From positions 6,543,391 through 6,607,390 of the forward strand of contig OZ252029.1 of the NCBI GenBank assembly GCA_965247515.1: 64,000 nt of DNA, read 5' to 3'. The notes below the pieces were generated by a model. That model saw nothing but the letters and a program-made list of their open reading frames with translations, was not told the DNA's origin and made no database searches. How positions within the stretch are numbered: position 1 is the first letter of the stretch; every line of letters begins with the position of its first letter. Of the stretch, positions 6,118 through 56,163 are shown one piece after another. Made by a program: the position numbers and the translations under genes. The DNA comes from Bryobacterales bacterium. Lineage in GTDB: Bacteria > Acidobacteriota > Terriglobia > Bryobacterales > UBA6623.

Positions 6118-6262
6118 GGGGTTGCAGGGGCGCGACATGTCGCGACCTTGTGCCGGGACCGCGACGAGAACATGGAGCCGTCGACGCCATTGCATCCGGG
6201 CATTCACCAAGGCCTCGCCGCGAGGGCGAGTTGAAGGGCGCGACATGTCGCGCCCCTACGCC
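6118..6262. repeat. Composite repeat B, copy 1: about 145 bp bounded by two CGCGACATGTCGCG-core palindromes
   Basis: Palindromes at 6131-6144 and 6236-6255 (GGGCGCGACATGTCGCGCCC). The interior GAGAACATGGAGCCGTCGACG...TTCACCAAGG...GTTGAAGGGCG matches 34148-34487. Confidence 0.7.
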
Positions 6263-13961: not shown

Positions 13962-15206
13962 CTAGACTTCTCGCTCTCCCCGAACCAAGTCTTCGTACGA
14001 TTCCCGCCGTCGAATCTCGGTCCACTCGTTGCCCTGCACCAGGATTTCGGCGGGCCGGCGCCGGGCGTTGTAGTTTGACGCCAGCACGAACCCGTACGCC
14101 CCCGCCGTGGCGACCGCCAACAGATCACCCGGTTCGGCGGCCGGCATCACGCGGTCTTGCGCCAGAAAGTCGCCTGACTCGCAAACCGGTCCGACGACAT
14201 CGGCGACGATCTCCGGACGGCTCCGCTCGACGACGTGGTAGACCTCGTGATCGGCTTGGTAGAGCGCGGGTCGGATGAGGTCGGTCATCGCGGCGTCGAC
14301 GATGACGAAGGACTTCTGGTCGTCTTGCTTGATGTAGAGCGTCTCGGTCAGCAAGACTCCGGCGCGGGCGACGATCGAGCGGCCCGGCTCGAGCATCACC
14401 AGCAGATCGCGGCCTTTCAAGGCGTTGGTGAGGAGCCGTCCGTAGTCGGCAATCGACGGGGGCTTCCTGGAGTCGTCGTACGGAACCCCGAGTCCTCCGC
14501 CGAGATCGACCGAAGTGATACTGCCATCCAATCGATCGATCAGCGCGAGCACCTTGTCGAGAGCGCCGCCGAACGCCTCGATGTCGAAGATTTGCGAGCC
14601 AATATGGCAGTCCACGCCAACGAGTTGAAGCGGCGCGAACTCGTCGGCGCGGCGGTAGAGGTCTTCAGCCTCGTCCATCGGGATGCCGAATTTGTGCGCC
14701 TTCAGGCCTGTGGCGATGTAGGGGTGGGTGTCGGCGTCGATGTCGGGGTTCACGCGCAGCGCGACCTTCGGACTCAAGCCGGCGTCTATGGCCGCTTGGC
14801 GTAGCGCTTCGAGCTCGCCCGCCGATTCGCAGTTGAAGGATCCGATGCCCGACTTGAGCGCATAGTCCATCTCGGCGCGCGTCTTGCCGACGCCCGAGAA
14901 GACGACTTTGGCCGGGTCTCCGCCGGCTCGCAGGACCCGGTAGAGCTCGCCGCCGGAGACGATGTCGAAGCCGGCGCCTTCTTTCGCCAGCAGCGCGAGA
15001 ATGCCGAGCGAGCCGTTGGCCTTGACGGAGTAGGCGACTTCGGCGTGGAGCTCGGATAACGCGGACCGGTAAGCCCGGTAGTTCTCGACGATGGCTGAGC
15101 CGGAGTAGACGTAGGTTGGGGTTCCGACCTCTTGGGCGATTTGTTCGAGGGAGACGCCTTCGCAGAGCAGGCAGCCTTGGGAGCGGTTGAATCCTTGCAA
15201 CGGCAC
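13962..15206 (-). CDS. lysA: Diaminopimelate decarboxylase
   Basis: GTPTYVYSGSAIVENYRAY...YSVKANGSLGIL...GGGLGVPY...CESGD...GAYGFVLASNYN are PLP-decarboxylase fold III / LysA motifs. Start set at GTG 15206 (VPLQGFNRSQ...), because the upstream ORF extension reads through a REP hairpin and a transposase remnant. Confidence 0.9.
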   Translation of the reverse strand: MPLQGFNRSQGCLLCEGVSLEQIAQEVGTPTYVYSGSAIVENYRAYRSALSELHAEVAYSVKANGSLGILALLAKEGAGFDIVSGGELYRVLRAGGDPAKVVFSGVGKTRAEMDYALKSGIGSFNCESAGELEALRQAAIDAGLSPKVALRVNPDIDADTHPYIATGLKAHKFGIPMDEAEDLYRRADEFAPLQLVGVDCHIGSQIFDIEAFGGALDKVLALIDRLDGSITSVDLGGGLGVPYDDSRKPPSIADYGRLLTNALKGRDLLVMLEPGRSIVARAGVLLTETLYIKQDDQKSFVIVDAAMTDLIRPALYQADHEVYHVVERSRPEIVADVVGPVCESGDFLAQDRVMPAAEPGDLLAVATAGAYGFVLASNYNARRRPAEILVQGNEWTEIRRRESYEDLVRGEREV

Positions 15207-15244
15207 GAGATTCAACCTTAGCGAATTCGAAAACCGGGGCGGGC

Positions 15245-15335
15245 CCGGAGCCGCGCGCGTAAGCAAGCGGTTGCTTGAAGTTGCTGACCGGGCCGCTTGT
15301 TCTAGCAACCGCTCCCTTAACGGTCGCGGCTCCGG
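15245..15335. repeat. REP family C hairpin (CCGGAGCCGCG[CGCG/ACCG]T.AG...GCGGTTGC arms)
   Basis: Left arm 15245-15274 is CCGGAGCCGCGCGCGTAAGCAAGCGGTTGC. Right arm 15305-15335 is GCAACCGCTCCCTTAACGGTCGCGGCTCCGG. The arms are imperfectly complementary. Confidence 0.8.
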
Positions 15336-15642
15336 CCAGACCGCCATGGGCTGGCCCTGTCCCTCGAGCACATATCGAATTGCGTGCAAGACTGGTTCGC
15401 GGCCGTTGATCCGTCTAGTGCTACCGATATTTGCAAACGTCGATGATTGCGCGGAGGACGATCGCGCGGCAGGTCGCGTTTAGGCTGTAGGGCCGTTCTT
15501 TCATCAGCCTGTGCGCGGTTTCATAGCGGGGTTCATCCTCTGGCGGCAGCCATGATCCGGGTAGGTTGTGAAGGCGATCGATTGACCCGCGCTCTTCGCC
15601 GTGAAAGTTGCTTGTCGACGAGCGCCGGGCACGAGCGTTTCT
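15336..15642 (-). pseudogene. Internally deleted remnant of a RAYT-like (IS200/Y1-type, REP-associated) transposase
   Basis: N-terminal piece ...ERPYSLNATCRAIVLRAIIDVCKYR* stops exactly where this family normally continues RGW.LLA.HVR.NHVH.VV (the HUH motif). A different frame about 30 nt downstream reads ...VLHAIRYVLEGQGQPMAVW, which resembles the family C-terminus. REP hairpins flank it on both sides. The family consensus is recalled from memory, not searched. Confidence 0.4.
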
Positions 15643-15730
15643 CGGAGCCGCGCGCGTCAGCAAGCGGTTGCCAGAGTAAGCGACTCAGCTGTGAACTCCA
15701 GCAACCGCTTGCTCACGCGCGCGGCTCCGG
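15643..15730. repeat. REP family C hairpin, near-perfect
   Basis: CGGAGCCGCGCGCGTCAGCAAGCGGTTGC ... GCAACCGCTTGCTCACGCGCGCGGCTCCG: 29-bp arms with one mismatch and a 30-nt loop. Confidence 0.85.
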
Positions 15731-15747
15731 GTCATACAATACGCTAG

Positions 15748-18700
15748 GTGGTCCTTGAAGCGTTCGATCCTTTGATTGCGGAGTGGTTTGAGCGGAAGTT
15801 TGGGCGGCCGACCGAGCCCCAGGTCCAGGGTTGGCCGGAGATTCGGTCGGGGGGCGACGTGCTGATCTCGGCGCCGACCGGGTCGGGCAAGACGCTGGCG
15901 GCGTTTCTGATTTGTCTGGATGGGTTGGTGCGGGCGGCGCGCGAAGGGGCGCTGCCGGATGAGGTTCAGGCGGTTTACGTCTCGCCACTGAAGGCGCTGT
16001 CGAACGACATCCACAAGAACCTCGAACGGCCGTTGGCTGAGATTCGGGAGCTAGCCGCTGAGCGCGGGGTCGAGTTGGCGCCGATTCGGACAGCGGTGCG
16101 GACCGGTGATACCCCGGCGTATCAGCGCCAGAAGATGCTCACCAAACCGCCGCACATTTTGGTGACGACGCCGGAGTCGTTGTTCATCCTGCTGACGGCG
16201 AAGAAAAGCCGCGAGGCGCTCAAGACCGCGCGGACGTTGATCGTCGATGAGATCCACGCGGTGGCCGACGACAAGCGCGGATCGCACTTGGCCCTGTCGA
16301 TCGAGCGGCTCACCAATGTCGTCGGAAAGCTACAGCGGGTGGGACTGTCGGCGACGGTGAGCCCGCTCGAAGAAGTTGCGCGGTTTTTGAGTCCGCAAGC
16401 GAAGACGGTTCAAATCGGACATACGCGTCCGATGGAGTTGGGCGTCGAGGTTCCCGGCGATGAGCTGGGTGCGGTGACCACGCAAGGGCAATGGGACGAG
16501 ATTCGCGACCGGCTGGCGGAGTTGATCCTGCGACATCGCACGACGCTGGTTTTCGTGAACACCCGGCGGCTGGCCGAGCGCTTGACCCATGCCTTGGAAG
16601 ACAAGCTCCCCGAGGGTTCGGTGCTGGCCCACCACGGGAGTTTGTCGCGGAAGATCCGGCTCCAAGCCGAAGAGAAGCTCAAGTCGGGTGAGCTGCGGGC
16701 CGTGGTGGCGACCGCTTCGCTCGAGTTGGGGATCGATGTCGGGACGGTCGACCTGACGTGCCAGATTTCGACGCCGCGGTCGATCGCCGTCACGCTGCAG
16801 AGGATTGGGCGGTCGGGTCACTGGGTGGGGGCGCTGCCGCATGGGCGGATCTTCGCCACCTCGCGCGATGATCTCCTCGAGTGTGCGGCCTTGGTGAGGG
16901 CGATCCGCGGCGGGCGGCTCGACCGGCTGGAGATTCCCACGGCGCCGCTTGATGTCTTAGCTCAGCAGATTGTGGCCGAGCTGGCCTGCGAAGACCAGAC
17001 CGAGGACGAGTGCTTTGAGTGGGTGCGGCGGGCCTACCCGTATCGGGCGCTGCCGCGGGAGAAGTTCGACGAAATCATCACCATGCTCGGCGAAGGGATC
17101 GCTACAGCCCGGGGCCGTTCGGGAGCGTACTTGCACCATGACCGGGTGAACCGCCGGCTCAAGGGACGGCGGGGGGCGCGGTTGGCGGCGATAACCTCGG
17201 GCGGTGCGATTCCCGACTCGGCGCAATATCAGGTGATTGCCGAACCCCAGGGCGGAATGGTCGGCATGTTGGATGAGGACTTCGCGATTGAGTCCTCGAT
17301 CGGCGACATCTTCTTGCTGGGGGCGACATCGTGGCGGATTCGGCGGGTCGAGCCCGGGCGGGTGCGAGTGGAAGACGCGCATGGGGCGGCGCCGACGGTG
17401 CCCTTCTGGCTGGGCGAGGCGCCGGGCCGGACCTGGGAGCTTTCGCAAGAAGTGGGACGTTTGCGGCGGGACATTGACACGCTTTCAGATGAAGACGCGA
17501 TTGAAATGTTGACGTCGGAGTGCGCTTTGGACCGGCGCGGGGCCGAGCAGGCGGTGGAGTACGTGAGGGCGACGCGCAAGGCGCTGGGGGCGGTTCCGAC
17601 GGATACGACGGTTGTCGCCGAGCGGTTCTTCGACGAGTCGGGCGGCATGCAGTTGGTGTTGCATTCGCCGTTTGGCGCGCGGGTGAATCGGGCTTGGGGG
17701 CTTTCGCTCAGGAAGCGGTTTTGCCGGTCGTTCAACCTCGAGCTACAGGCGGCGGCGAATGACAACGGGGTCAATATTTCTCTGACCGAGCAGCACGCGT
17801 TTCCGTTGGAGTTGGTGTTTGAGTTCCTTTCGCCTGAGACGCTCGAACACACCTTGACGCAGGCGCTGCTCGATGCGCCGATGTTTACGACGCGCTGGCG
17901 TTGGAATGTCTCGCGGTCGCTGGCGGTGCCGCGGTTCAGTGGCGGGAGGAAGACGCCGCCGCCGATCCAGCGCATGCGGGCGGAAGACCTGCTGGCGTCG
18001 GTCTTCCCGGATCAGGCGGCTTGCGCGGAGAATCTGGCGGGCGAGATTCGGGTGCCGGATCATCCGCTGGTCGCCGAGACGGTCGACAACTGCCTGCGCG
18101 AGGCGATGGATTTGGACCGATTGACGGGCATCATCGGACAGATTCGGTCGGGGGAGATTGAGTCTGTCGCGGTGGATACGCCAGAACCTTCGCCGTTTTC
18201 GCACGAGTTGCTTAACGCGAATCCCTGGGCGTTTCTCGATGATGCGCCGTTGGAGGAGAGACGGGCGCGGGCGGTCCAGATGCGGCAGACGTTGTCCGAT
18301 GTCGACGCCGGGCTTGGGGCGTTGTCGGCGGAGGCGATTGCGCAGGTCGGCGAGGATATTTGGCCGGTTGCGCGGGATGAGGATGAGCTGCACGACGCGC
18401 TGTTGACGTTAACGGTGATGCCGCCGGCCCCGGAGTGGGAGGAGCTGTTTGGGGCTCTGGTCGAGACCCGGCGTGCCGCGCTTTTGGATAACGGGCTTTG
18501 GGTTGCGGCGGAGCGGTTGGCGCTGGCGCGGCGGGTCTACCCAGGCTGCAAGTGTTCGATCAAGGCGCTTGAACCGCCCACACCGTTGCCGGATTCACGG
18601 GACGCCTGCGTGGCGGAGGTGCTGCGGGGTTGGCTGGATTCGACGGGACCGGCGACCGCCGCGGCGATCGCTGACCGCCTCATGCTTCCGCCGCCGGCGG

Positions 18701-19905
18701 TGGCGCTGGCGCAGCTGGAGTCGGAAGGCCAGGCGATGCAGGGGCGCTATTCGCCCGACTTGCCTGAGGGCGAAATCGAGTGGTGCAGCCGGCGGGTGTT
18801 GGCGCGGATCCATCGGCTGACGCTGCGTCGGTTGCGGCGCGAGATCGAGCCGGTCACGAGTGCGGACTTCATGCGGTTCGCCCTGCGATGGCAGCACGTC
18901 ACGCCGGGCGGGCGCTTGCACGGGGCGGACGGGACCTTGCAGATTCTCAAGCAGTTGCAGGGGTATGAGGCTCCGGCGGCGGCGTGGGAGGCTCACATTT
19001 TGCCGGCTCGGGTGAAGGGGTACGTCCCTGGCTACTTGGATGAGCTTTGCCTTTCCGGCGAGGTGATGTGGGGCCGGTTGTCGCCGCATCCGGCGCTGGA
19101 GGATGCGCCCGGAGAGCGCGGTGGACGGCGGGTTCGGCCGACACGGGCGGCGCCGCTGTCGGTGTTCTTGCGGGAAGAGGCGCCGGCTTTGATTCCGGTG
19201 AGGCCCCCGATGGCGGGGGAGTTGAGTCATCCTGCGCGGGAGCTGTTTGAGGCGCTGCAGACGCGCGGGGCGTCGTTCTTTGCGGAGCTCTCGGCGGCGA
19301 CGGGGCGTTTGGCGAGTGAGGTCGAGGAAGGGCTTTGGGAGCTCGTCGCGGCAGGTCTGGTGACGGCGGATGGGTTTGACAACTTGCGGTCGTTGATCGA
19401 TCCCAAGCGGCGGGCCGGCCAAGGTCGGGGAAGGCTGGCGCGTCCGCGGCATGCTGGGGGGCGTTGGGCGTTGCTTGCCCGCGGCGGCGAAGTTCGCGAC
19501 ATGGAGGCGTTCGCGCGCCAGTTGCTGGCGCGTTGGGGGGTGGTCTTTCGGGATCTGATGAAGCGAGAATCGTTGGCGCCTGCCTGGCGGGATATGCTGG
19601 TCGTGCTGCGGCGGATGGAGGCCCGAGGGGAGGTTCGCGGCGGGAGATTCGTGGCGGCGTTTCTTGGCGAGCAGTTTGCATTGCCCGAGGCGCTGGATTT
19701 GATGCGGGCGGTGCGGCGGTCCGAGCCCGGTGGAGAGGAGCTGCGGCTCAGCGCGGCGGATCCCTTGAACTTGGCGGGGTTTGTTTTGCCGGGTCCGCGC
19801 GTGCCCCAGGGGAGCGGGCGGGAGTTGCGGCTGCGGGACGGGGTGATGGCGGAGGATCCGGACCGAATAAGGACTTCGCTTGCTGGGCTGTCCGCGGCGT
19901 CTTAG
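15748..19905 (+). CDS. lhr: Lhr-family large ATP-dependent DEXH-box helicase
   Basis: 1385 aa, GTG start. ISAPTGSGKTLAAFL (motif I), LIVDEIHAVADDKRGSHLAL (DEIH), VGLSATV, LVFVNTRRLAE, HHGSLS, ATASLELGIDVG, QRIGRSGH. The long C-terminal extension is typical of Lhr. Confidence 0.85.
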   Translation: MVLEAFDPLIAEWFERKFGRPTEPQVQGWPEIRSGGDVLISAPTGSGKTLAAFLICLDGLVRAAREGALPDEVQAVYVSPLKALSNDIHKNLERPLAEIRELAAERGVELAPIRTAVRTGDTPAYQRQKMLTKPPHILVTTPESLFILLTAKKSREALKTARTLIVDEIHAVADDKRGSHLALSIERLTNVVGKLQRVGLSATVSPLEEVARFLSPQAKTVQIGHTRPMELGVEVPGDELGAVTTQGQWDEIRDRLAELILRHRTTLVFVNTRRLAERLTHALEDKLPEGSVLAHHGSLSRKIRLQAEEKLKSGELRAVVATASLELGIDVGTVDLTCQISTPRSIAVTLQRIGRSGHWVGALPHGRIFATSRDDLLECAALVRAIRGGRLDRLEIPTAPLDVLAQQIVAELACEDQTEDECFEWVRRAYPYRALPREKFDEIITMLGEGIATARGRSGAYLHHDRVNRRLKGRRGARLAAITSGGAIPDSAQYQVIAEPQGGMVGMLDEDFAIESSIGDIFLLGATSWRIRRVEPGRVRVEDAHGAAPTVPFWLGEAPGRTWELSQEVGRLRRDIDTLSDEDAIEMLTSECALDRRGAEQAVEYVRATRKALGAVPTDTTVVAERFFDESGGMQLVLHSPFGARVNRAWGLSLRKRFCRSFNLELQAAANDNGVNISLTEQHAFPLELVFEFLSPETLEHTLTQALLDAPMFTTRWRWNVSRSLAVPRFSGGRKTPPPIQRMRAEDLLASVFPDQAACAENLAGEIRVPDHPLVAETVDNCLREAMDLDRLTGIIGQIRSGEIESVAVDTPEPSPFSHELLNANPWAFLDDAPLEERRARAVQMRQTLSDVDAGLGALSAEAIAQVGEDIWPVARDEDELHDALLTLTVMPPAPEWEELFGALVETRRAALLDNGLWVAAERLALARRVYPGCKCSIKALEPPTPLPDSRDACVAEVLRGWLDSTGPATAAAIADRLMLPPPAVALAQLESEGQAMQGRYSPDLPEGEIEWCSRRVLARIHRLTLRRLRREIEPVTSADFMRFALRWQHVTPGGRLHGADGTLQILKQLQGYEAPAAAWEAHILPARVKGYVPGYLDELCLSGEVMWGRLSPHPALEDAPGERGGRRVRPTRAAPLSVFLREEAPALIPVRPPMAGELSHPARELFEALQTRGASFFAELSAATGRLASEVEEGLWELVAAGLVTADGFDNLRSLIDPKRRAGQGRGRLARPRHAGGRWALLARGGEVRDMEAFARQLLARWGVVFRDLMKRESLAPAWRDMLVVLRRMEARGEVRGGRFVAAFLGEQFALPEALDLMRAVRRSEPGGEELRLSAADPLNLAGFVLPGPRVPQGSGRELRLRDGVMAEDPDRIRTSLAGLSAAS

Positions 19906-21764: not shown

Positions 21765-24334
21765 TCAATCAGGCAAGAGCTGGTCGAGCTCCTCCACCCA
21801 ATTGACGATCACGTGGATCTTGTTGGCGGGCGAGGTTTCCCCGCGCTCGATCATCAGAAAGCGCCGGCCGCTGGGATCGACGTCGTATTGACTTAACAGA
21901 GGGTTATCGAACAGCTCCCGGGGCGTCCCGACTTTGAGCGGCGGCCCGGGGTCGATGGTCGCCGCCATCATCTTGGAGCCGTCGAGGTAGAACAGCTCGC
22001 GCCCATCTCCCGACCAGCGCGGACGCTCTCCGCCGCCGAATGAGACGGGTTGACGCCCGCCTCCTTCGGGAAACCGTTGTACGTAGACCGCGCTGTCGTC
22101 CGACTCGTCGGTAACGAAGGCCAGCCAGCGGCCGTTAGGCGAAATCTGAGCTTGTATCTCGTTCTGCGCGGAATCGAGCAGCGGGCGCGGCTCTCCGCCC
22201 AGAGGCAGCACCCAGGTGTCGTTTTCGGTATCCGGGCTCCGCTTCTGATACAGGAGGTTCTCACCGTCGGGTGACCAGCTGCGCGGGAACACTCGTGCGT
22301 CGGACTCGAGTAAGACCTCGACGGGCCTGCTAGCGTCAGAGATACGCTGCTCGATGCGCTCGGGATAGTTGGACTGGAACGCCACGCGCCGCGAGTCCCA
22401 AGACCAAACCGGAGACCGATGAACCGCCTCATGGGTCAAGCGGGTGCGCCGGGTTGTTTCGAGGTCGTAGACCCAGATGTCTCGGTCGTGGGCCGAGCTG
22501 ATCTGGACCGCCGCCCGCCTGCCGTTGGGCGATATGTCGATCCACCCGTATTCGGCGCGATCGTCGATCAACGGCTGAACCGCCCCCTCTCGGTCGACCC
22601 AGACGAGTCGGTCCCCACTCAGCTCGCCGGATATATAGGCCAGCGTGCCGGACTCCGACACGGCGAAATTTCCGTTGCCGAAGTAGCCCCCCGCTCGTAG
22701 TAAGCCATCGAGCGCCGGCAGGGGGGAGCCCACTAGCCGCCCTTTGCTGAAATCGAAGCGTGCGGCCATCAAGCCGTCTAGCTCGCCGAAGATTAGAAAC
22801 CCTCTCTCGAGCAACGTGGCGTTGCGGCCATCGACCGCGCGATGCAGAGTTCGCCGCTCGCCTCCTTCGAGCGTGACGGCGCTGCACACGACACCGTCAC
22901 CTTCGTATGTCCTGATCGCGACGAATAGCTCCTTTCCGCCGGGAAGCCGCCGCGGCGCCCCGGGGTAGCCCTCGCCTAGATCGGGCTCGGCATTCATCAA
23001 GATCTCAGGCGCGCCGCCCCCCAGCGATGTACGACTGATGCTTAGGTCGCCTACGAAGCCGAGCTTGTAGAGGATCTCGTCGTCCCTCCAGTGCGCCTCC
23101 ATAAGAGGGCCGTCCAACTCGAACATCTTCTGGGGGGATCCGCCCAGGACGGACGCTTTCCAAACCGCCCCTCTGGCCTGAAAGCCGACCCACTGGCCGT
23201 CCGGCGAAAAGAACACAGCCCCCGAGTTCTCCGAGCTGGGAACGGTGACGGCTTCGAAGGCGTCGATCGGGCGCAGATAGAGACGTGGCGGGCCCTCGGG
23301 CCCTCGGGCCAGATAGGCCAAAGTCGTGCCGTCGGGCGAAATGTCCAGCTGGCTGCGAAGCTCGTGGCCCTCGGGCAGTGGGATGATGAGGCGCTGCACC
23401 CCCGGCGTCGACGGAGCGCGATTAAAGAAGCTCCAACAAGCCAGGGCGGCGCAGGCGGCTGCGATCGCCCAGGGGACGAACCGCTTGGCCTCGACGGGCT
23501 TCGGCGACGGCTTGGGCTGCGCGGCCCCCTTGTCGAGCCGCCGCAGGTCGACAAGCATTTCATCGACGTGCTGATAGCGCTCCTCGGGCTCCTTCGCCAG
23601 CGCCTTGTCGAGGACCCGGTCGAGCGCTGGCGGCAACCCCGAGCGCCGCGCCGTCACCGGCTCGGGGTCTTCGTTCAAGATGCCGTAGGCGATCGCCTGC
23701 TCGTATTCCGCTTCGAACGGCGTGTGTTGGGTGAGCATCTCATAGCAAACGCACCCCAGCGCCCAGATGTCGGCACGGCGGTCGGCCTGCTTGCCTTCGA
23801 GCTGCTCCGGCTCCATGTAGGCCGGGGTCCCCAGCATGGTCCCGCTCTTGGTCAGCTTCGAGCGGCCCGCCAGCGACGCTAGCCCGAAATCCATGATCTT
23901 CACCTGCCCCTTGGCGGTGAGCATGATGTTCTGGGGCTTGATATCGCGGTGGACGATGCCTTTCTCGTGGGCTTCCAGCAAGCCCTCGCCGATCTGGCAA
24001 GCGATGTCGAGCGCCTCATCGAGCGGCAGTGGGCGTTCTTTGACTTTTTCCGCCAGCGACGGCCCGTCGACGTAGGCCATCGCGATGAAGGTCCGCCCCT
24101 GTTCCTCGTGAATGCCGAAGACCTGGCAGATATGTTGTGGTCGAGGGAGGCTGAAGCCTGCGCCTCGCGAATCAACCGAGCTTTGGTCTCACTATCCCCG
24201 ACGGTCTCGGACGAAAGGAATTTGAGGGCGACCGTGCGGCGGAGCTGGGTGTCCTCGGCTTTGAACACCTCGCCCATGCCGCCCGATCCCAGCTTTTCGA
24301 GGATCTTGTAATGGCTGATCGTACGCTCCACCAA
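21765..24334 (-). pseudogene. Ser/Thr protein kinase fused to a TolB/PD40-type beta-propeller; split by one frameshift near 24131-24140
   Basis: The N-lobe (ISHYKILEKLGSGGMGEVFKAEDTQLRRTVALKFL...REAQASASLDH) is in the frame starting at 24334. The rest (ICQVFGIHEEQGRTFIAMAYVDG...HRDIKPQNIML...DFGLA...TPAYMEPEQ, a TM segment, then PD40 repeats) is in the 21765-24080 frame. A single-base indel in GACCACAACATATCTGCCAG joins them. Confidence 0.85.
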
Positions 24335-26628: not shown

Positions 26629-29316
26629 TTGGTTGGGCAGACAATCAGCCATTACAAGGTCCTCGACAAGCTGGGCCAGGGCGGCATGGGAGTCGTCTAC
26701 CGGGCCCAGGACACCAAGCTCGATCGAACCGTCGCGCTGAAGTTCCTGCCAGCGCATCTACTCGGCGACGAGGACATCCGCAAGCGCTTCGAACGTGAGG
26801 CGAAAGCGGCCGCTTCTCTCCACCATCCGAACATCTGTCCGGTCTACGAGATTGACGATGTTGACGAGAAGGCATTCATCGCGATGGCCTTCATCGAGGG
26901 CGAGTCGCTCGACAAGAAGATCGAGCAAGGACCGCTGAAGCTCGATCAAGCTCTTGCGATCGCTCAGCAGGTTGCACAGGGCCTGGAAGCCGCCCACGAA
27001 AAGGGGATACATCACCGCGACATCAAGCCGGAAAACTTGATGGTTGACGCCAAGGGCCACGTCACGATCATGGACTTTGGGTTGGCGCAGTTGACTGAGG
27101 CCTCGCGGCTCACGCGCACTGACGAGACGCTCGGGACGACCTCCTACATGTCACCCGAGCAGACGGAAGGATCAGGGACCGATCACCGCACCGACATCTG
27201 GGCCCTCGGCGTCGTGCTCTACGAAATGATCGTCGGCGACCAGCCCTTCAAAGGCGACTACGACAAGGCGATCATGTACTCCATCCTCAACGAGGAGCCT
27301 GAACCGATCACGGCCTTGCGGACTGGCGTCCCGATGGAGCTGGAGGTTGGCGTTGGAAAGTGCCTGGAAAAGGAGCCCCAGCGTCGCTACCAGAATACAG
27401 CCGACTTGGTCGTCGACCTGGAGAACATCGGGCGGCGCTTCCAGTCTGGGCGCTCTACGGTGGCGCGCGTAGCTTCGCTGTCGGATCGTCCCACGGCGCC
27501 GTCGTCGTCTCCTCCTCGGGCCTCATCCCGCGAACAGTGGGCGTGGGCGATAGCCGCGATTTGCTTGATCGGCTTCGTCGGTTCGCTGACGTTCTCCGGT
27601 AGAGGCTCCGTTTCGGCGCCGGAGGGCGATTCGGCGATTCGGCGTTTTTCGTTTACCCCGGATTCGCTCGTGACCTTCGGCAATCGCGTTGGAATCTCGC
27701 CGAACGGTCGGCACATCGTCTATGCAGTGGAACGGGGCGGCGTGACAAAGCTCGAGGTTCGCGACCTGAACAGCGAGCAGCCGCGCGAACTGGCGGGGAC
27801 CGACGGCGCACAGCGGCCTTTCTGGTCGCCTGACAGCCGGATGATCGGGTTTGCGTCGGACGGCGAGCTGAAAAAGATTCCTGTGTCCGGCGGAGAGGCT
27901 GCAACGATTTGCCCGCTGCCGAGTCCAATTTTTCGGGGCGGCGCCTGGAGTCCTGGCGGACGAGAGATTGTTTTCAGCTCAGGCGACAGTGCGCCGACGG
28001 TTCTTTATCAGGTTCCCGCGCTCGGGGGCCGCCCCGAGCCGCTGCCCGGCCTGGATCAGACGCTCCCAAAAGTGAATCCGCACTTTCTCCCGCTGGAGTT
28101 CGGACGCGCGATCCTTTACGAACATACGCCGGGCCGCGGCGCTCGCGTCCACCTCTTCAATATCGAAACAGCCGAAGAGGCCGTCGTAGGCGAAGGGGGG
28201 CGGCCTGTTTACCATGCGAGCGGCCATGTCCTCTCCGAAATCGGAAATCCCGCTGAGGTCTGGGCCCAGCCGATCTCGGTTGAAGAGATGAAGCCGACAG
28301 GCCAGGCGTTCCCGGTCGTGCGGAATGCGGGCGAACCAAGCGTCTCGGCGGATGGTGTTCTAACCTTCGTACACGACTTTCCGTTTAACAACGCCCAGAT
28401 CGTGTGGCGAGATCGCCAGGGGCGCCGGCTGGGCGTCGTAGGCAGCCCCCGACGAGGCCTTAACATGCTGGCGCTGGGGCCGAACGACCGACAGGCGGCC
28501 TTCGTCGCCGTGGATGCGAACAACGCTGACATTTGGGTTCACGACATTGCACGCTCCATCGACACGCGCGTTACTTTCTCCCCTGCGGCGGACTTGCACC
28601 CTGCCTGGTCTAAGTCAGGTCGAGAGATCGTGTTTGACTCATCACGCAATGGGAGATCCGCCATCTATCGGCGGAGCGTGAGCGCGACCGCCGAGGCTGT
28701 TCCCGTCGGGTCGTCTTTGTCTTATGCGCTAGCGCCGGACTGGTCCCCGAACGGCGAGCATGTGCTTCTCCACGAGCGTGCTGCCGGCACGATGGACGAC
28801 ATCTGGATGGCCTCGTTGAAACCCGACGGCGAATGGGAGAGCAGAGTATTTCTCCAGACACCGTTCCGAGAGCAGACCGCCAAGTTCTCGCCGGACGGCC
28901 GGTACATCGCGTATCTTTCCGACGAATCGGGACGCATGGAGCTCTGGGTCAGGCCGTTTCCGAACGGCGAAGAGAAATGGCGCATCTCTGGGAACGGGGC
29001 ATCTCAGCCGCGTTGGCGAAAGGATGGAAAGGAGATTTTGTATGTGGAGCCGGGCGGCGTCTTGTTCGGTGTCGAGGTGACGACCGAGCCGACCTTCTCA
29101 GCGGGCAGCCCGGTCAGACTCTTCCAGGACAATCGATTGATCCAAACCTCGAACAACCCGAGGTATGACGTCACTGCTGATGGGCAGCGGATCATCATGT
29201 TCGAGCGGGTCGAAGAGGAAGGCGAGCGTCCGCCGGCCTCAATTCACATCGTAGAGAACTGGTACGAGGAGTTTCGGGACCGCGAACCTAACCCTCAATA
29301 CAGCAATGGCTTATGA
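26629..29316 (+). CDS. Ser/Thr protein kinase fused to a TolB/PD40-type beta-propeller (intact paralogue)
   Basis: TTG start. ISHYKVLDKLGQGGMGVVYRAQD...VALKFL...HRDIKPENLMV...DFGLA...TSYMSPEQ, a TM segment, then repeated PD40-like blades (FSPDGRYIAYLSDESGRMELWV...). Confidence 0.9.
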   Translation: MVGQTISHYKVLDKLGQGGMGVVYRAQDTKLDRTVALKFLPAHLLGDEDIRKRFEREAKAAASLHHPNICPVYEIDDVDEKAFIAMAFIEGESLDKKIEQGPLKLDQALAIAQQVAQGLEAAHEKGIHHRDIKPENLMVDAKGHVTIMDFGLAQLTEASRLTRTDETLGTTSYMSPEQTEGSGTDHRTDIWALGVVLYEMIVGDQPFKGDYDKAIMYSILNEEPEPITALRTGVPMELEVGVGKCLEKEPQRRYQNTADLVVDLENIGRRFQSGRSTVARVASLSDRPTAPSSSPPRASSREQWAWAIAAICLIGFVGSLTFSGRGSVSAPEGDSAIRRFSFTPDSLVTFGNRVGISPNGRHIVYAVERGGVTKLEVRDLNSEQPRELAGTDGAQRPFWSPDSRMIGFASDGELKKIPVSGGEAATICPLPSPIFRGGAWSPGGREIVFSSGDSAPTVLYQVPALGGRPEPLPGLDQTLPKVNPHFLPLEFGRAILYEHTPGRGARVHLFNIETAEEAVVGEGGRPVYHASGHVLSEIGNPAEVWAQPISVEEMKPTGQAFPVVRNAGEPSVSADGVLTFVHDFPFNNAQIVWRDRQGRRLGVVGSPRRGLNMLALGPNDRQAAFVAVDANNADIWVHDIARSIDTRVTFSPAADLHPAWSKSGREIVFDSSRNGRSAIYRRSVSATAEAVPVGSSLSYALAPDWSPNGEHVLLHERAAGTMDDIWMASLKPDGEWESRVFLQTPFREQTAKFSPDGRYIAYLSDESGRMELWVRPFPNGEEKWRISGNGASQPRWRKDGKEILYVEPGGVLFGVEVTTEPTFSAGSPVRLFQDNRLIQTSNNPRYDVTADGQRIIMFERVEEEGERPPASIHIVENWYEEFRDREPNPQYSNGL

Positions 29317-29990: not shown

Positions 29991-30023
29991 CGGCGCTATC
30001 TTTTGCGGAACCCGCCGGGACCG

Positions 30024-30134
30024 CAAGGGAGTGCCCCATGGGCCTGACTGCCCACCCAAAGCGATGAAAACGGTCGCCCCGGAGCCGCGACCGTGAGGGA
30101 GCGGTTGTCGCAGCCGGGGACAACCGCTTGCTCA
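30024..30134. repeat. Left part of composite repeat D (REP family C type), interrupted by the IS1182 copy
   Basis: GCAAGGGAGT...GATGAAAACGGTCGCCCCGGAGCCGCGACCGTGAGGGAGCGGTTGTCGCA...CAACCGCTTGCTCA aligns with 50440-50548. Confidence 0.65.
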
Positions 30135-32030
30135 GGGGCCGTGAAGAAAACCTATTGTCGCGTCGGCGCGCGGGAGCGCCAAGCGCACGCCAAGCTCAGC
30201 GCTGCCGAACGCCGCCCCTGCCGAAACCGCAACTTCTGCGCCTCGACTCCTGATTGACCGCCTGAGCGGCCCGGAAACGGTCGTTTCGGGCCGTTTCCCG
30301 GCCCTTTTCGCCCCCCCCACCGCCGCTACGCCGCCGCTTGCGCCGCCAGCCCGCACTCGGGCCCACGACGCCAGACCAGCCGGATCCAAGCCGCAATGTT
30401 GTACGCCAAAACCCCCCACAAAAGCTCCGATCGCGCCTTCCGCAGCCCTCGTACTCGAAACTTGCGCACCCCCAATCGCTCTTTCAACCAGGCGTTCGGA
30501 AACTCCGCCGTCTCGGACCGCTTGCGATACGCCGCCCGCCCACGCTCGCTCTCCATCCAGCGCCGATGTTTCGCCATCACCGCGTTCTCTTCGCTGCGGC
30601 TCAACGTTCGATGACCGCTCTTGGGGCAGCACTTGTGCCGCTGTGCGCATTCGCGACAATCAGATGCTTTTGCCTGATACTGCCGATATTTGCGCTTCCG
30701 CTTCAGCGACGATCGCTGATACGTCAAGGTCCGCTGGGCCGGACACAGAAACGTGTCCGTCGCCTCGTCGTAGATGAAAAACTTCGGCGCGTAGCGCGGC
30801 CCAATTCCCGCCGCCTTCAACGCCGCCTTCGAGCCCTTGTCCGGCGCCGGCGCCGGCGTCGCGTATTCGATTTCAGCGGCTGCCAGCGCCTCGATGTTGG
30901 CCTGGTTGGCGTAGCCCCCGTCCGCTAACACTTGCTTCGGGGTTCGCTCGAAGCGCCCTTCCACATCGTCCAGCGTCGGGGTCAGCTGGCCCGCATCGGA
31001 GGCGTTGTTGGTCAACTCCACGCCGACCACGATCTTCTCTTTGGCGTCGGTCGCCAGCTGCGCGTTGTAGCCGAGTCCCCAACCGCCGTTGGATTCGTGT
31101 TGCGGGCGCGCTTCCGGCTCGCTCTCGCTCACCCGCGCCTGGCGTCGTTGCTCTTCGTCGCGCTTGCCCGCTTCGACCTTGGGCAGTTCCTCCAGCGCCT
31201 GCTCCATCCGCTCGACTCGCTCCCGCAAGGTCCGCTTACGCGCCGCCTGACGCCGCCGATTCGAACCTTCGTCGTCGGCTTCTTCCGAGAGTTGACGCAC
31301 CGCTTCGCGCGCTTGTTCGAGATGCCGCTCGAGCGTCGGACGCCTGCGTTGCGACCCGCCCGAGGCTTGCGCCCGGATCCGCGTGCCGTCGACGGCCACC
31401 TGCTCGAGATCCACCAGCCCCTCTTGACTCAGCAGCGCCAATACCTGTGTCAACAAGTTCTCGAGAGCTTTTGAGTGGAATACCCGAAAATCCGAAAGAG
31501 TGTGATGATTGACGACCGCCATGCCGCACAACCACTCCAACTCCGGCCGATAGCGGCTTTGACGCGCGATCTCACGCGCCGAGCTCATCCTTTCCGAATA
31601 CGCCCAGATCCAGATCGCGACCAGCAACCGCGGATCCCATGCCGGCCGCCCGGCGGACTCCTTGCGGGTTTCCAGATGAGCAGCGAAGCCGGACAGGTCG
31701 AGCATGCCGCTCAGCTCCCAGACGGCGCGCACCAGATGGTCGGCCGGCACGAGCCGTTCGACGTCGATCGCGGCATAGGTGAATTGGTCGCGATTGGGCT
31801 GTCGCAGCTGCAGTTGGTCAACGGGCACGGCTTGGCGCGGCTTGGCGGGGCGTTGCTCGAGCTCGACTAAGACCTGTTGTTCGCCCATATAATAAGGGCG
31901 TTGGACGCCGCCGCCAAGTTATCCGAACATTCGTTTGCCCTCATGTTTTATCCCATTTTGATCCACTCGCGCCATTCCGAACCGCCCCAGGGGAGCTTCG
32001 GCGGCCACGACGGGTTTATTTCACAGCCCC
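30135..32030 (-). mobile_element. IS1182-family insertion sequence (~1.9 kb)
   Basis: Terminal inverted repeats GGGGCCGTGAAGAAAACC (30135-30152) and GGGTTTATTTCACAGCCCC (32012-32030) enclose a single transposase gene. It splits a repeat that is intact at 50440-50632. Confidence 0.8.
30326..31888 (-). CDS. IS1182-family DDE transposase
   Basis: 520 aa. ...VPADHLVRAVWELSGMLDLS...GRPAWDPRLLVAIWIWAY...VAVDGTRIRA...VLADGGYAN...CRECAQRHKCC...ETAEFPNAWLKERLGVRKFRVRGL are layout and motifs typical of IS1182/IS5-like transposases. Confidence 0.85.
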   Translation of the reverse strand: MGEQQVLVELEQRPAKPRQAVPVDQLQLRQPNRDQFTYAAIDVERLVPADHLVRAVWELSGMLDLSGFAAHLETRKESAGRPAWDPRLLVAIWIWAYSERMSSAREIARQSRYRPELEWLCGMAVVNHHTLSDFRVFHSKALENLLTQVLALLSQEGLVDLEQVAVDGTRIRAQASGGSQRRRPTLERHLEQAREAVRQLSEEADDEGSNRRRQAARKRTLRERVERMEQALEELPKVEAGKRDEEQRRQARVSESEPEARPQHESNGGWGLGYNAQLATDAKEKIVVGVELTNNASDAGQLTPTLDDVEGRFERTPKQVLADGGYANQANIEALAAAEIEYATPAPAPDKGSKAALKAAGIGPRYAPKFFIYDEATDTFLCPAQRTLTYQRSSLKRKRKYRQYQAKASDCRECAQRHKCCPKSGHRTLSRSEENAVMAKHRRWMESERGRAAYRKRSETAEFPNAWLKERLGVRKFRVRGLRKARSELLWGVLAYNIAAWIRLVWRRGPECGLAAQAAA

Positions 32031-32120
32031 ATAGAGGGCGGCTCCGGGGCCGCGGCGCATTCCGCGGTGGTCGGCGGTCGGCAGTCAGCGGGTTTTCGAC
32101 AGAGCGGGTTCCGCAATCTG
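32031..32120. repeat. Right part of composite repeat D, displaced by the IS1182 insertion
   Basis: ...GCGGCTCCGGGGCCGCGGCGCATTCCGCGGTGGTCGGCGGTCGGCAGTCAGCGGGTTTTCGACAGAGCGGGTTCCGCAATC aligns with 50556-50632. Confidence 0.65.
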
Positions 32121-34147: not shown

Positions 34148-34487
34148 TCGCAGGGGCGCGACATGTCGCGCCCTTATGCTAATACTCGTTACTTAAGAGC
34201 CGGCGGTTGTTGAAGTTTGCGGAACCCGCTCCCTAGCGGTCGCGGCTCTGACTTCGCGAGTCAAACGTCAACCGAAGGGCGTCAGAGCCGCGACCGCTAG
34301 GGAGCGGGTTCCGCGCCTTCCCGACATACCCAGCTACACCTCAACCGACGCTTAAGTAACGAGTATTAGCCCTTATGCTGGTGGCCGAGATGAGAACATG
34401 GAGCCGTCGACGTGCCTGCATTTGGGTTTCACCAAGGTTTTGCCGAAAGGGCAGGTTGAAGGGCGCGACATGTCGCGCCCTTGCGCC
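34148..34487. repeat. Composite repeat B, copy 2, carrying a nested 188-bp insertion
   Basis: Bounded by GGGCGCGACATGTCGCGCCC at 34154-34173 and 34461-34480. After removing 34181-34368 and one direct-repeat copy, it aligns along its length with 6118-6262. Confidence 0.7.
34181..34368. mobile_element. 188-bp MITE-like palindromic element flanked by an 11-bp direct repeat
   Basis: Direct repeats GCCCTTATGCT at 34170-34180 and 34369-34379. Outer inverted repeats AATACTCGTTACTTAAG / CTTAAGTAACGAGTATT. Inner perfect 34-bp inverted repeat GCGGAACCCGCTCCCTAGCGGTCGCGGCTCTGAC (34219-34252 / 34281-34314). Confidence 0.7.
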
Positions 34488-44940: not shown

Positions 44941-45070
44941 CTCGGCCCTCAAAACTGCCTCACGACGGCGTCGCGCCCGCTCATCGAACCGACGTGAAAG
45001 CTCGCGCGCCACGTCGGGGCGTCAGCCAGCCAAGCTGAGCTAAGCTGATGTGGACTTCAAGGAGACCAAA

Positions 45071-50335: not shown

Positions 50336-50439
50336 CGGCGGGCTGTCGAGACCTTAGCGCCGACGTCCGCATATACGATGACGTATCCAGGTCTTTGCGG
50401 CTCTGAAACCTGCGATTCAAAGGTTGTCAGCGCGCGACT

Positions 50440-50632
50440 GCAAGGGAGTATCTGATGGCCTCACAGGCCACCCATGAGGATGAAAACGGTTGCCCCGGAG
50501 CCGCGACCGTGAGGGAGCGGTTGTCGCAACCTCGAGCAACCGCTTGCTGACGCGCGCGGCTCCGGGGCGGTGGCGCATTCGGTCGGCGGTCGGCGGTCAG
50601 CGGGTTTTCGACGCAGCGGGTTCCGCAATCCG
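50440..50632. repeat. Composite repeat D, intact copy (~190 bp)
   Basis: GCAAGGGAGT...GATGAAAACGGTTGCCCCGGAGCCGCGACCGTGAGGGAGCGGTTGTCGCAACCTCGAGCAACCGCTTGCTGACGCGCGCGGCTCCGGGGCGG...CAGCGGGTTTTCGACGCAGCGGGTTCCGCAATC is colinear with 30024-30134 plus 32031-32120. Confidence 0.7.
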
Positions 50633-55867: not shown

Positions 55868-55922
55868 CGGAGCCGCGACCGGAAGGGAGCGGTTGCCTGA
55901 GACTCCGGCAACCGCTTGCTCA
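55868..55922. repeat. REP family C unit forming the left flank of the MITE
   Basis: CCGGAGCCGCGACCGGAAGGGAGCGGTTGCCTGAGACTCCGGCAACCGCTTGCTCA. The complementary tail TTCCGGTCGCGGCTCC follows the MITE at 56073-56088. Confidence 0.75.
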
Positions 55923-56072
55923 GGGGCTGTGAAAAAATCGCCCGTTGAGCGCGAAAGACGGGCGAGGCATGCGTCGCCCCTACCGACGATCGTTTGTTTT
56001 CAACGACGTAGGGGCTTGGCATGCCAAGCCCGTCTTGCCGGAATTGGATCCCCGACATTTTTTCACAGCCCC
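55923..56072. mobile_element. 150-bp MITE sharing terminal inverted repeats with the IS1182-family element
   Basis: Termini GGGGCTGTGAAAAAATCG / CGACATTTTTTCACAGCCCC, compared with IS termini GGGGCCGTGAAGAAAACC / GGGTTTATTTCACAGCCCC. The interior is palindromic and includes a REP-A copy (GGGCGAGGCATGCGTCGCCC). There is no coding capacity. Confidence 0.7.
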
Positions 56073-56163
56073 TTCCGGTCGCGGCTCCAAGGAATCGTTG
56101 TCTGCTTTAGCATGCGTGGCCCCTGACCGCGCGGTCTTACGCCGTAGTAAGCAGGAGAACACA

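What the first reader, a model, noticed from the sequence alone, without database searches (positions are those of the whole stretch)
15245..15730. REP-flanked, internally deleted RAYT-like transposase remnant next to lysA
Two family-C REP hairpins (15245-15335, 15643-15730) bracket about 300 bp. This stretch encodes an N-terminal piece (...ERPYSLNATCRAIVLRAIIDVCKYR*). In another frame it encodes a C-terminal piece (...VLHAIRYVLEGQGQPMAVW). Both resemble, from memory, the ends of a Y1/HUH (IS200-like, REP-associated) transposase family. The catalytic core of that family (RGW.LLA.HVR.NHVH.VV...Y) would lie exactly in the missing middle. Family-C REPs (CCGGAGCCGCG..GT.AG...GCGGTTGC) recur at 30077, 50487, 55868 and in hybrid form elsewhere. 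This locus may therefore be a dead copy of the enzyme that spread the REPs in this window. It also explains the artificial 60-codon N-terminal extension of the lysA ORF.
Basis: partly seen in the sequence, partly recalled or inferred. Interest (0 to 1): 0.6.

Follow-up and report, generated by a model that had tools for sequence, protein, structure and literature searches.

The report
Dead REP-associated tyrosine transposase gene remnant
The 300 bp between lysA and the Lhr helicase gene is a broken copy of a known small DNA-cutting enzyme gene (class 3 Y1/HUH transposase), still flanked by the palindromic repeats this enzyme family travels with; it is an ordinary pseudogene of a described system.

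Summary
Two strong hairpins (15245-15335 and 15643-15730) bracket 307 bp. Each hairpin is a doublet of two inverted ~25-nt REP units.

On the minus strand this stretch holds two out-of-frame pieces of a Y1/HUH transposase:
- An N piece (15612-15424), profile E = 4.5e-20.
- A C piece (15425-15336), profile E = 2.9e-5.

About 167 nt between the pieces are deleted. The deletion removes the invariant Trp, the NHVH (HUH) motif and the W[TA] motif. The first ~16 codons are also missing.

It survives in the C piece as YVLEGQ.

Intact homologues (~165-190 aa) reach Pfam PF01797. In 62 of 74 genomic loci they have the same repeat unit, CnGA-GCCGCG(AC/CG)CGTNAG(GG/CA)AGCGG, within 250 nt. This matches the "class 3 TnpA-Y1" family of Quentin et al. 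2018. JGI routinely annotates its members as RayT.

The lysA ORF extension (61 codons) is an artefact; the real start is GTG 15206.

Whether an intact copy exists in this genome is undetermined. Seen in passing: an IS1182-family element and its MITE insert into the loop of these REP units.

The parts
15245..15335 (.). Left REP doublet (REPIN-like hairpin). It consists of a B-type unit at 15246-15274 (+) and an A-type unit with a 1-nt insertion at 15305-15335 (-). It lies downstream of the remnant in gene direction.
   Evidence: ssDNA fold -33.9 kcal/mol on the + strand, z -5.3
15336..15425 (-). C piece of the transposase remnant: GSTRRINGREPVLHAIRYVLEGQGQPMAVW. It corresponds to the last ~30 residues of intact proteins and carries the Y motif YVLEGQ (Tyr codon 15374-15372). 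It is in the frame of the spurious lysA extension.
   Evidence: E=2.9e-5, profile positions ~125-164; 53-63% identity to the C-termini of 47 intact loci.
15423..15426 (-). Deletion junction (TATCGG|TAGCAC). About 167 nt (~55 codons plus a frameshift) are missing, including the invariant Trp, AHVRxNHVHxVV (HUH), the invariant Lys and the RW[TA]RH motif.
   Evidence: The same junction is present in the sister assembly L001.
15424..15612 (-). N piece of the remnant: SNFHGEERGSIDRLHNLPGSWLPPEDEPRYETAHRLMKERPYSLNATCRAIVLRAIIDVCKYR. It covers profile positions 17-79, and a stop codon follows at 15421-15423.
   Evidence: phmmer, 109 hits. E=4.5e-20; 41-49% identity to all 80 intact loci.
15643..15730 (.). 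Right REP doublet (B-type units 15643-15671 (+) and 15701-15729 (-), 35-nt arms). It abuts the 5'-truncated end of the remnant.
   Evidence: z -9.3 on the + strand, -11.6 on the - strand
13962..15206 (-). lysA (diaminopimelate decarboxylase), 414 aa, real start GTG at 15206. The ORF 15207-15389 upstream is an artefactual extension through the REP doublet and the C piece.
15748..19905 (+). Lhr-type helicase gene, the divergent neighbour.
50496..50564 (.). Intact A/B REP doublet elsewhere in the window. It serves as the reference copy of the repeat.
   Evidence: z -6.8
30080..30133 (.). REP doublet whose B arm is interrupted at the loop by the IS1182-family element at 30134-32030.
55868..56088 (.). 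REP doublet split by a 150-bp MITE (55923-56072) that has the same terminal inverted repeats as the IS.

Best explanation
The 307 bp between the two hairpins is a pseudogene of a class 3 Y1/HUH single-strand DNA transposase (TnpA-Y1 class 3 of Quentin et al. 2018, usually annotated 'RayT'). It lies on the minus strand and is still embedded in its cognate REP units.

Intact family members are ~165-190 aa. They carry the motifs LHGDERGSVDRxHN, RGWxLxAxHVRxNHVHxVV (HUH), RW[TA]RHGSTR and YVxx(E/G)QG (Tyr). They sit between inverted copies of a ~25-nt unit. The unit is a CnGA foot followed by a small hairpin: GCCGC, then GA, then CC, a GTNA loop, GG, GA, and GCGG.

By analogy with IS200/IS605 TnpA and E. 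coli TnpA-REP, the enzyme would bind this hairpin in single-stranded DNA. It would cleave next to the foot using the HUH-bound metal and the Tyr nucleophile, and so mobilise REP units or doublets. This step is inferred and was not tested here.

In this locus the gene has lost ~167 nt, which removes the HUH motif and shifts the frame. It has also lost its first ~16 codons, start codon included. It therefore cannot make an active enzyme. Any ongoing mobility of the REP doublets in this genome must depend on another copy, if one exists.

The decayed gene plus REP doublets simply fill the divergent lysA-lhr intergenic region. They generate a spurious 61-codon 5' extension of the lysA ORF.
For: - Homology of the N piece: exhaustive phmmer, 109 hits at E<=1e-3. 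Family profile against the whole-window six-frame translation gives E=4.5e-20 for the N piece and 2.9e-5 for the C piece, with nothing else significant.
- Intact hits are Y1 transposases. PF01797 scores 23.1-27.6 bits against a cut-off of 23 for 8 of 10 tested, with a ninth at 20.2 bits. A PDB profile search hits the IS200-type transposases 2f4f and 2ec2, and ISDra2 TnpA. There are weak hits to both NF047646 and NF033573.
- Alignment shows invariant W82, H93 and H95 in the deleted part and near-invariant Y153 in the retained part.
- Positions on intact genes: the N piece maps to nt ~34-222 and the C piece to nt ~388-477, so ~165 nt plus a 2-nt overlap are missing.
- REP association: of 74 loci with enough flank, 51 have a unit upstream in + orientation, 51 have one downstream in - orientation, 42 have both, and 62 have any unit within 250 nt. 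Median distances are 28 and 33 nt. Unit density is 4.4/kb near the gene against 0.14/kb elsewhere. Flank-to-flank repeats score 30-100 bits against at most 26 bits for controls.
- Both unit variants of this window (A = GCGACCGTGAGGGAGCGG, B = GCGCGCGTNAGCAAGCGG) flank intact genes elsewhere.
- Unit hairpin is supported by covariation. Pair 14-21 reads C-G in 135 units, G-C in 45, A-T in 5 and T-A in 4.
- The literature description matches: NHVH, W[TA], YV[VI][AENY]EQ, CnGA foot, Acidobacteria and Planctomycetes, ~600 repeats in Solibacter usitatus, and 5 of 10 members lacking motifs.
- The family has more than 7,700 90%-identity clusters, many named RayT by JGI.
- The same deletion junction occurs in a second assembly.
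Against: - Neither piece hits Pfam or NCBIfam directly.
- The closest intact relatives are only 41-49% identical to the N piece. The only closer hit (P0002, 64%) is itself degenerate. The copy is therefore old or from a poorly sampled branch.
- The arrangement of units differs from the typical intact locus. A full hairpin doublet abuts the truncated 5' end, and the first downstream unit points the 'wrong' way. The flanking doublets may thus be later arrivals rather than the gene's original flanks.
- No cleavage or mobility data exist for class 3 enzymes. The mechanism is by analogy.
Confidence: 0.9

Rival explanations
1. The truncated N-terminal ORF (80 aa from TTG 15663, or the 63-aa product called in the sister assembly) is still expressed. 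It would act as a REP-binding regulator or inhibitor of an active paralogue, as truncated transposase inhibitors do.
For: The N piece is an uninterrupted 87-codon open frame. A gene caller predicted a 63-aa product in L001. Class 3 proteins have an unusually conserved N-terminal region.
Against: - The first ~16 profile positions (the first beta-strand region) and a proper start are missing.
- No promoter-like site was found.
- Long open frames are common at 62% GC.
- The sister assembly carries a 108-bp tandem duplication inside this ORF, as expected for neutral DNA.
- No other protein shares this truncated architecture at high identity.
Confidence: 0.04
2. The peptide resemblance is chance, or comes from translated REP sequence, and the 300 bp is just intergenic spacer between two REP doublets.
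For: Direct Pfam and NCBIfam scans give no hits. The word-index homology search found only the self hit. Many database ORFs of this family run into REPs.
Against: The query excluded REP sequence, yet the N piece gives E=4.5e-20 and the C piece 2.9e-5 against a family profile. The two pieces are collinear and on the same strand. All 80 intact loci match the N piece.
Confidence: 0.01
3. The internal deletion is an assembly artefact, for example a collapse, and the real genome holds an intact gene here.
For: The locus is repeat-rich and differs between two assemblies.
Against: The junction sequence TATCGGTAGCAC and both pieces are identical in L001, which otherwise differs by an IS, a MITE and a duplication. 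No internal repeat that could cause a collapse flanks the junction.
Confidence: 0.03

Closest known systems
Class 3 TnpA-Y1 (Quentin, Siguier, Chandler, Fichant 2018, BMC Genomics 19:475; PMC6006769)
   Same: The extended conserved N-terminal region, the Y----Q tyrosine motif (YVLEGQ here), and flanking 'atypical' hairpins with a 5' CnGA foot (CGGA here). The taxonomic range is Acidobacteria and Planctomycetes. Repeat copy number is high, and copies lacking motifs are frequent.
   Different: This copy lacks the NHVH and W[TA] motifs and the first ~16 residues, and it is frameshifted, so it is a pseudogene. Its Y motif deviates from the published consensus YV[VI][AENY]EQ (L at position 3, G at position 5).
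RAYT / TnpA-REP (class 2; E. coli YafM, Nunvar 2010, Ton-Hoang 2012; NCBIfam NF047646)
   Same: The system logic is the same: a small HUH/Tyr gene bracketed by inverted REP units that also occur dispersed and as hairpin doublets (REPINs). JGI annotates family members as RayT.
   Different: Intact homologues score only 17-29 bits against a cut-off of 80. The Y motif is Y----Q rather than YIxxNP. The foot is CnGA rather than GTAG. The N-terminal domain is different.
IS200/IS605 TnpA (class 1; PF01797, NF033573; PDB 2f4f, 2ec2, 2xm3)
   Same: The HUH plus Tyr-helix core. PF01797 is reached by most intact homologues, and the best PDB sequence matches are these proteins. The Y----Q motif is related.
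   Different: There are no IS ends and no tnpB partner. The flanks are short repeated hairpins that are also dispersed across the genome. NF033573 scores 18-31 bits against a cut-off of 55.
REPINs (Bertels & Rainey 2011)
   Same: The two flanking hairpins, and the copy at 50496-50564, are doublets of inverted REP units separated by a short spacer.
   Different: Arms are often of two unit variants (A and B), which gives fixed mismatches in the stem. Mobility as a unit was not shown here.

Membership tests
Class 3 TnpA-Y1 (Quentin et al. 2018) | Significant similarity to the class-specific extended N-terminal and core profile | tested here: met
   N piece E=4.5e-20 on profile positions 17-79 and C piece E=2.9e-5 on positions ~125-164. 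phmmer gives 109 hits.
Class 3 TnpA-Y1 (Quentin et al. 2018) | HuH motif NHVH | tested here: not met
   It lies in the ~167-nt deletion between 15424 and 15425. It is present and invariant in intact homologues.
Class 3 TnpA-Y1 (Quentin et al. 2018) | W[TA] motif (RW[TA]RHG) | tested here: not met
   The C piece starts at GSTR, just after this motif.
Class 3 TnpA-Y1 (Quentin et al. 2018) | Y motif Y----Q (YV[VI][AENY]EQ) | tested here: met
   YVLEGQ at 15374-15357 (-). It aligns with near-invariant Y153. Two positions deviate from the published consensus.
Class 3 TnpA-Y1 (Quentin et al. 2018) | Gene flanked by atypical hairpins with a 5' CnGA foot, also present in many copies | tested here: met
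   Units with a CGGA foot lie on both sides. There are 11 or more units in 64 kb against 0.18 expected. The same unit lies within 250 nt of the gene in 62 of 74 intact loci.
RAYT / TnpA-REP equivalog (NCBIfam NF047646) | Score at or above the curated cut-off (80 bits) | tested here: not met
   Intact homologues score 17-29 bits. The remnant pieces give no hit.
IS200/IS605 transposase (PF01797 / NF033573) | Score at or above the Pfam gathering score (23 bits) or the NCBIfam cut-off (55 bits) | tested here: inconclusive
   8 of 10 intact homologues score 23.1-27.6 bits on PF01797, but only 18-31 bits on NF033573. The remnant pieces give no hit.
Y1/HUH endonuclease, functional | ssDNA hairpin binding and cleavage with a 5'-phosphotyrosine intermediate | not testable with these tools
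   This needs biochemistry. The remnant lacks HUH and cannot be active.
REPIN | Two REP units in inverted orientation forming a hairpin, repeated in the genome | tested here: met
   Fold z-scores from -5.3 to -11.6. Doublets occur at 15245, 15643, 30080, 50496 and 55868.

The most novel reading that the evidence does not exclude
The remnant's surviving N-terminal domain might still be made. It would then act as a catalytically dead REP-hairpin-binding protein that modulates REP mobilisation or expression of the neighbouring lysA and lhr genes. Internal deletions that remove the HUH region recur in this family (P0020 and P0095; 5 of 10 class 3 members in the literature). That recurrence could reflect selection for such inhibitors rather than plain decay.
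Probability: 0.04. Interest if true: 0.5.

Novelty: already known. Interest (0 to 1): 0.2.

Why it matters
There are three practical consequences.
- Annotation. The lysA start should be GTG 15206 (414 aa), not the 475-aa ORF. The small ORFs in 15336-15663 should be marked as a transposase pseudogene.
- Method. Class 3 Y1 remnants are invisible to Pfam and NCBIfam scans and need a family-specific profile.
- Biology. The locus adds one more decayed copy to a family in which decay is already reported as common.

The wider survey done here extends the 2018 description, which was based on 24 proteins. It covered 80 loci, found more than 7,700 protein clusters, showed 32-fold enrichment of the CnGA-footed unit next to the gene, and found covariation supporting the unit hairpin. 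It does not change the picture.

Tried and rejected
- Direct hmmscan of the N piece, the C piece and their concatenation against Pfam and NCBIfam gave no hits even at E<=10.
- An Rfam scan of 14900-16100 gave only sub-threshold miRNA-precursor models matching the hairpins, which is chance.
- The word-index protein search with the concatenated pieces returned only the product of the same locus in a sister assembly.
- A tblastn hit of the C piece at 28195-28272 (E=7e-4) lies inside an 895-aa kinase/TolB-like ORF and is chance. It disappears with the profile search.
- A weak profile hit at 2784-2882 (E=0.2) was judged chance.
- The 26-sequence alignment A1 was too diverse for the search for related loci. 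A 5-sequence alignment worked.
- The idea that RRQATFT in a third frame is the missing first beta-strand was considered. It overlaps the same DNA as NFHGEE and scores nothing, so it was dropped.
- The promoter and terminator scan of 15100-15850 found nothing.
- The search for an intact paralogue in the same genome failed. There is none in the 64-kb window. None of the 120 listed family proteins sits on the 981,566-bp contig that carries the sister locus. The rest of the genome could not be read.
- Structure prediction was not run. Pfam, PDB-sequence and literature evidence already settle the fold family.

Full report
**Setting**

The finding lies in the 541-bp divergent intergenic region between two genes.
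- lysA is on the minus strand. Its ORF is listed as 13962-15389.
- A 1385-aa Lhr-type helicase gene is on the plus strand at 15748-19905.

The window is 62.4% G+C. The window's source and taxon were not identified. The relatives of the element studied here are mostly Bryobacterales and other Acidobacteriota, which makes an acidobacterial origin an inference only.

**The repeats are real**

- The 28-nt pattern GGAGCCGCGCGCGTNAGCAAGCGGTTGC occurs at 15247(+), 15644(+), 15701(-) and 50536(-). Shuffles give 0 matches.
- A looser unit pattern (CNGAGCCGCGNNCGTNAGNNAGCGG, up to 3 mismatches) gives 11 matches against 0.18 expected.
- The matches are at 15246, 15643, 15705(-), 21057, 30080, 34226(-), 34283, 50496, 50540(-), 55868 and 63109(-).
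- One more unit at 15305-15335(-) is missed by the pattern because of a 1-nt insertion.

Folded as single-stranded DNA, the doublets are far more stable than shuffles. Their z-scores are -5.3 (15242-15338, + strand), -9.3 and -11.6 (15640-15733, + and - strands) and -6.8 (50490-50570).

Two unit variants coexist, and many doublets pair an A arm with a B arm.
- A: GCCGCGACCGTGAGGGAGCGG
- B: GCCGCGCGCGTNAGCAAGCGG

**The 307 bp between the doublets is a broken Y1/HUH transposase gene**

Direct scans of both peptides against Pfam and NCBIfam gave nothing. A word-index search found only the same locus in another assembly.

An exhaustive phmmer search used the N piece with REP-derived residues excluded (window:15424-15642:-). 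It found 109 proteins at E<=1e-3, most of them 160-220 aa.

Of ten full-length hits, eight reach the Pfam PF01797 (Y1_Tnp) gathering score, with 23.1-27.6 bits against a cut-off of 23. A ninth scores 20.2 bits. A profile of the family weakly hits the solved IS200-type transposases 2f4f and 2ec2, and ISDra2 TnpA.

I built an HMM from 31 full-length homologues and searched all 1851 six-frame segments of the window.
- The N piece scores E=4.5e-20 on profile positions 17-79 of 167.
- The C piece is in the frame that runs on into lysA. It scores E=2.9e-5 on positions ~125-164.
- Nothing else is significant.

On the 80 intact loci fetched from genomes, the N piece aligns to nt ~34-222 of the gene in all 80 loci, at 41-49% identity. 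The C piece aligns to nt ~388-477 in 47 loci, at 53-63% identity.

In the window the two pieces overlap by 2 nt at 15424-15425 (sequence TATCGG|TAGCAC). About 167 nt are therefore missing and the frame is shifted.

The alignment shows what the gap held:
- the invariant Trp (RGW);
- the invariant H-x-H of AHVRxNHVHxVV;
- an invariant Lys;
- the RW[TA]RH motif.

Profile positions 1-16 (..YLITFxCYG.) are also absent. The right-hand doublet abuts the truncated 5' end.

The same junction is present in the sister assembly L001, so it is not an assembly collapse.

The tyrosine in 'KAYASR', inside the gap, is not conserved across the family. It is replaced by W, R, N, H, I or S.

The near-invariant tyrosine is Y153, in YVxx(E/G)QG. 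That is the Y----Q motif which Quentin et al. give as the class's Y motif.

This motif survives in the C piece as RYVLEGQ, with the Tyr codon at 15374-15372. So only half of the catalytic apparatus (HUH) was deleted.

**The family is REP-associated and uses the same repeats as this window**

A genome scan with a 5-sequence alignment found 284 relatives, of which the best 80 loci were kept. Most are from Bryobacterales, Solibacteraceae and other Acidobacteriota. Others are from Planctomycetota, Verrucomicrobiota and Chloroflexota, and one is from cultured Paludibaculum fermentans.

I compared 300 nt upstream with 300 nt downstream of each gene. Most loci share a 20-70-nt repeat at 30-100 bits, typically 15-60 nt from the gene ends. 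Controls taken 1.5 kb away never exceed 26 bits.

The shared repeat is (C)nGA-GCCGCGACCGT(A/G)AGGGAGCGG, which is the A unit of this window. It points towards the gene on both sides.

Quantified over the 74 loci with at least 250 nt of flank on both sides:

| Measure | Result |
|---|---|
| Unit upstream in + orientation | 51 loci |
| Unit downstream in - orientation | 51 loci |
| Both | 42 loci |
| Any unit within 250 nt | 62 loci |
| Median distance upstream / downstream | 28 / 33 nt |
| Unit density near the gene | 4.4 per kb |
| Unit density elsewhere in the same loci | 0.14 per kb |
| Commonest feet | CCGA, CAGA, CGGA, CTGA |

The B unit flanks intact genes in L006, L063, L068 and L081. 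A and B units occur together in L008, L044 and L047, as they do here.

Across 224 distinct units, positions 14 and 21 covary: C-G in 135, G-C in 45, A-T in 5 and T-A in 4. Pairs 15-20 and 10-25 also show compensated changes.

This supports a small hairpin with the following parts:
- a CnGA foot;
- a GCCG(C)/(G)CGG stem;
- a tandem G.A/A.G mismatch;
- a two-pair CC/GG stem;
- a GTNA loop.

A single unit on its own is not more stable than shuffles. This fits the published term 'atypical secondary structures'.

**Comparison with what is known**

Quentin, Siguier, Chandler and Fichant (2018, PMC6006769) defined 'class 3' TnpA-Y1 with these features:
- mean length ~178 aa;
- HuH motif NHVH, a W[TA] motif, and Y motif YV[VI][AENY]EQ;
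- extended N-terminal conservation;
- occurrence in Planctomycetes, Acidobacteria and Proteobacteria;
- genes flanked by atypical hairpins with a 5' CnGA foot;
- ~600 such repeats and three genes in Solibacter usitatus;
- 5 of the first 10 members lacking HuH or Y motifs.

Every feature matches the family found here.

By NCBI's curated models the family is neither classical RayT (17-29 bits against a cut-off of 80) nor IS200 (18-31 bits against 55). JGI nevertheless names many members 'REP element-mobilizing transposase RayT', and NCBI names them 'transposase'. The family has more than 7,700 90%-identity clusters.

The object is therefore a decayed member of a described and routinely annotated family. 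Its mechanism is inferred from IS608 and E. coli TnpA-REP and has not been tested for class 3. The inferred steps are binding of the ssDNA hairpin, cleavage beside the foot by HUH-bound metal and the Tyr, and mobilisation of REP units or doublets.

**What remains open**

- The remnant is only 41-49% identical to any intact protein found. The one closer hit, at 64%, is itself frameshifted.
- No intact paralogue is in the window or among the 120 listed proteins on the sister contig.
- Whether this genome still has an active copy, and whether this copy ever mobilised the local REPs, cannot be decided.
- The unit arrangement is atypical: a full doublet directly abuts the truncated 5' end, and the first downstream unit is inverted relative to the norm. 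The doublets may have arrived after the gene died.

**lysA**

The sister assembly calls lysA from the GTG that corresponds to window 15206, giving 414 aa. In the 475-aa ORF the decarboxylase domains begin at residues 93-99. The 61-codon extension is an artefact of an open frame running through the REP doublet and the C piece.

**Side observations**

The sister assembly L001 is 99.6-100% identical to the window across the aligned stretches of this locus, but it differs in three ways.
- It has a 108-bp in-frame tandem duplication of window 15435-15542.
- It has a 1897-bp IS1182-family element (NF033551, 404.8 bits) inserted in the left B unit with a TTA duplication.
- It has a MITE with the same terminal repeats (a 150-bp copy lies in the window at 55923-56072) inserted in the right B unit with a TGA duplication.

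In the window, the same IS (30134-32030) and MITE (55923-56072) also sit at that same position of a B unit. The duplicated TNA is the loop of the unit hairpin.

REP targeting is known for IS3, IS110, IS4, IS256 and IS5 elements (PMC1525189). An IS1182-family case on class 3 REPs would be a modest addition.

**Verdict**

The object is ordinary and belongs to a known kind, so interest is low.

Noticed in passing
window 30134-32030 and 55923-56072; L001 2640-2790 and 3354-5250: A 1897-bp IS1182-family element (520-aa transposase, NF033551 404.8 bits) and a MITE with the same terminal repeats (GGGGCYGTGAA...; the window copy is 150 bp). All four observed insertions are at the same position of a B-type REP unit (GCTTGCT-TNA-CGCGCG). 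Two empty-site versus filled-site comparisons between the window and L001 show clean 3-bp TNA duplications. The TNA is the loop of the REP unit hairpin. Two window copies lack a matching duplication on one side.
   Followed up: partly
L001 2963-3178 (= window 15435-15542 duplicated): The sister assembly carries an in-frame 108-bp tandem duplication inside the remnant's N piece. This produces the 63-aa predicted protein P0001. The locus is polymorphic between near-identical genomes.
   Followed up: partly
window 45495-47097 and 60447-62037: Two 99.1%-identical copies of a ~1.6-kb IS3-family element (orfB NF033516, 302 bits). The first copy begins right where a sulfatase-like ORF (45050-45502) ends, so it probably interrupts that gene.
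   Followed up: partly
window 30016-30132 + 32038-32118 versus 50433-50630: The REP doublet at 50496-50564 sits inside a larger ~200-bp repeat. A second copy of this repeat (84-86% identical) is the one split by the IS at 30134-32030. Some REP doublets here are therefore part of a longer repeated unit whose nature was not examined.
   Followed up: no
REP units in window and L002-L081: Covariation across 224 distinct units supports a defined small hairpin: a CnGA foot, a 4-5-bp GC stem, a tandem G.A/A.G mismatch, 2 bp, and a GTNA (GNRA-like) loop. The A and B variants differ by a compensated C-G to G-C swap at pair 14-21.
   Followed up: yes
proteins P0002, P0020, P0095 (other genomes): Other family members also carry lesions around the HUH region. 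P0020 has an in-frame deletion from HVR to RWARHG. P0095 has lost the RGW...HVH segment. P0002 is frameshifted at the same place as this remnant. Loss of this region is recurrent in the family.
   Followed up: no
proteins P0003, P0012, P0013, P0014, P0036, P0041, P0043, P0063: Many database ORFs of this family are over-extended into the flanking REP units. This gives characteristic pseudo-peptides (..ATVRER.., ..DREGA.., ..SLTVAAP.., ..DARGS..) at their N- or C-termini, which is a systematic annotation artefact.
   Followed up: partly
window 6146-6262 / 34371-34487 and 24251-24322 / 47724-47795: Two further short dispersed repeats (80-88% identity). The first lies next to the REP unit pair at 34226-34307. 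They were not characterised.
   Followed up: no
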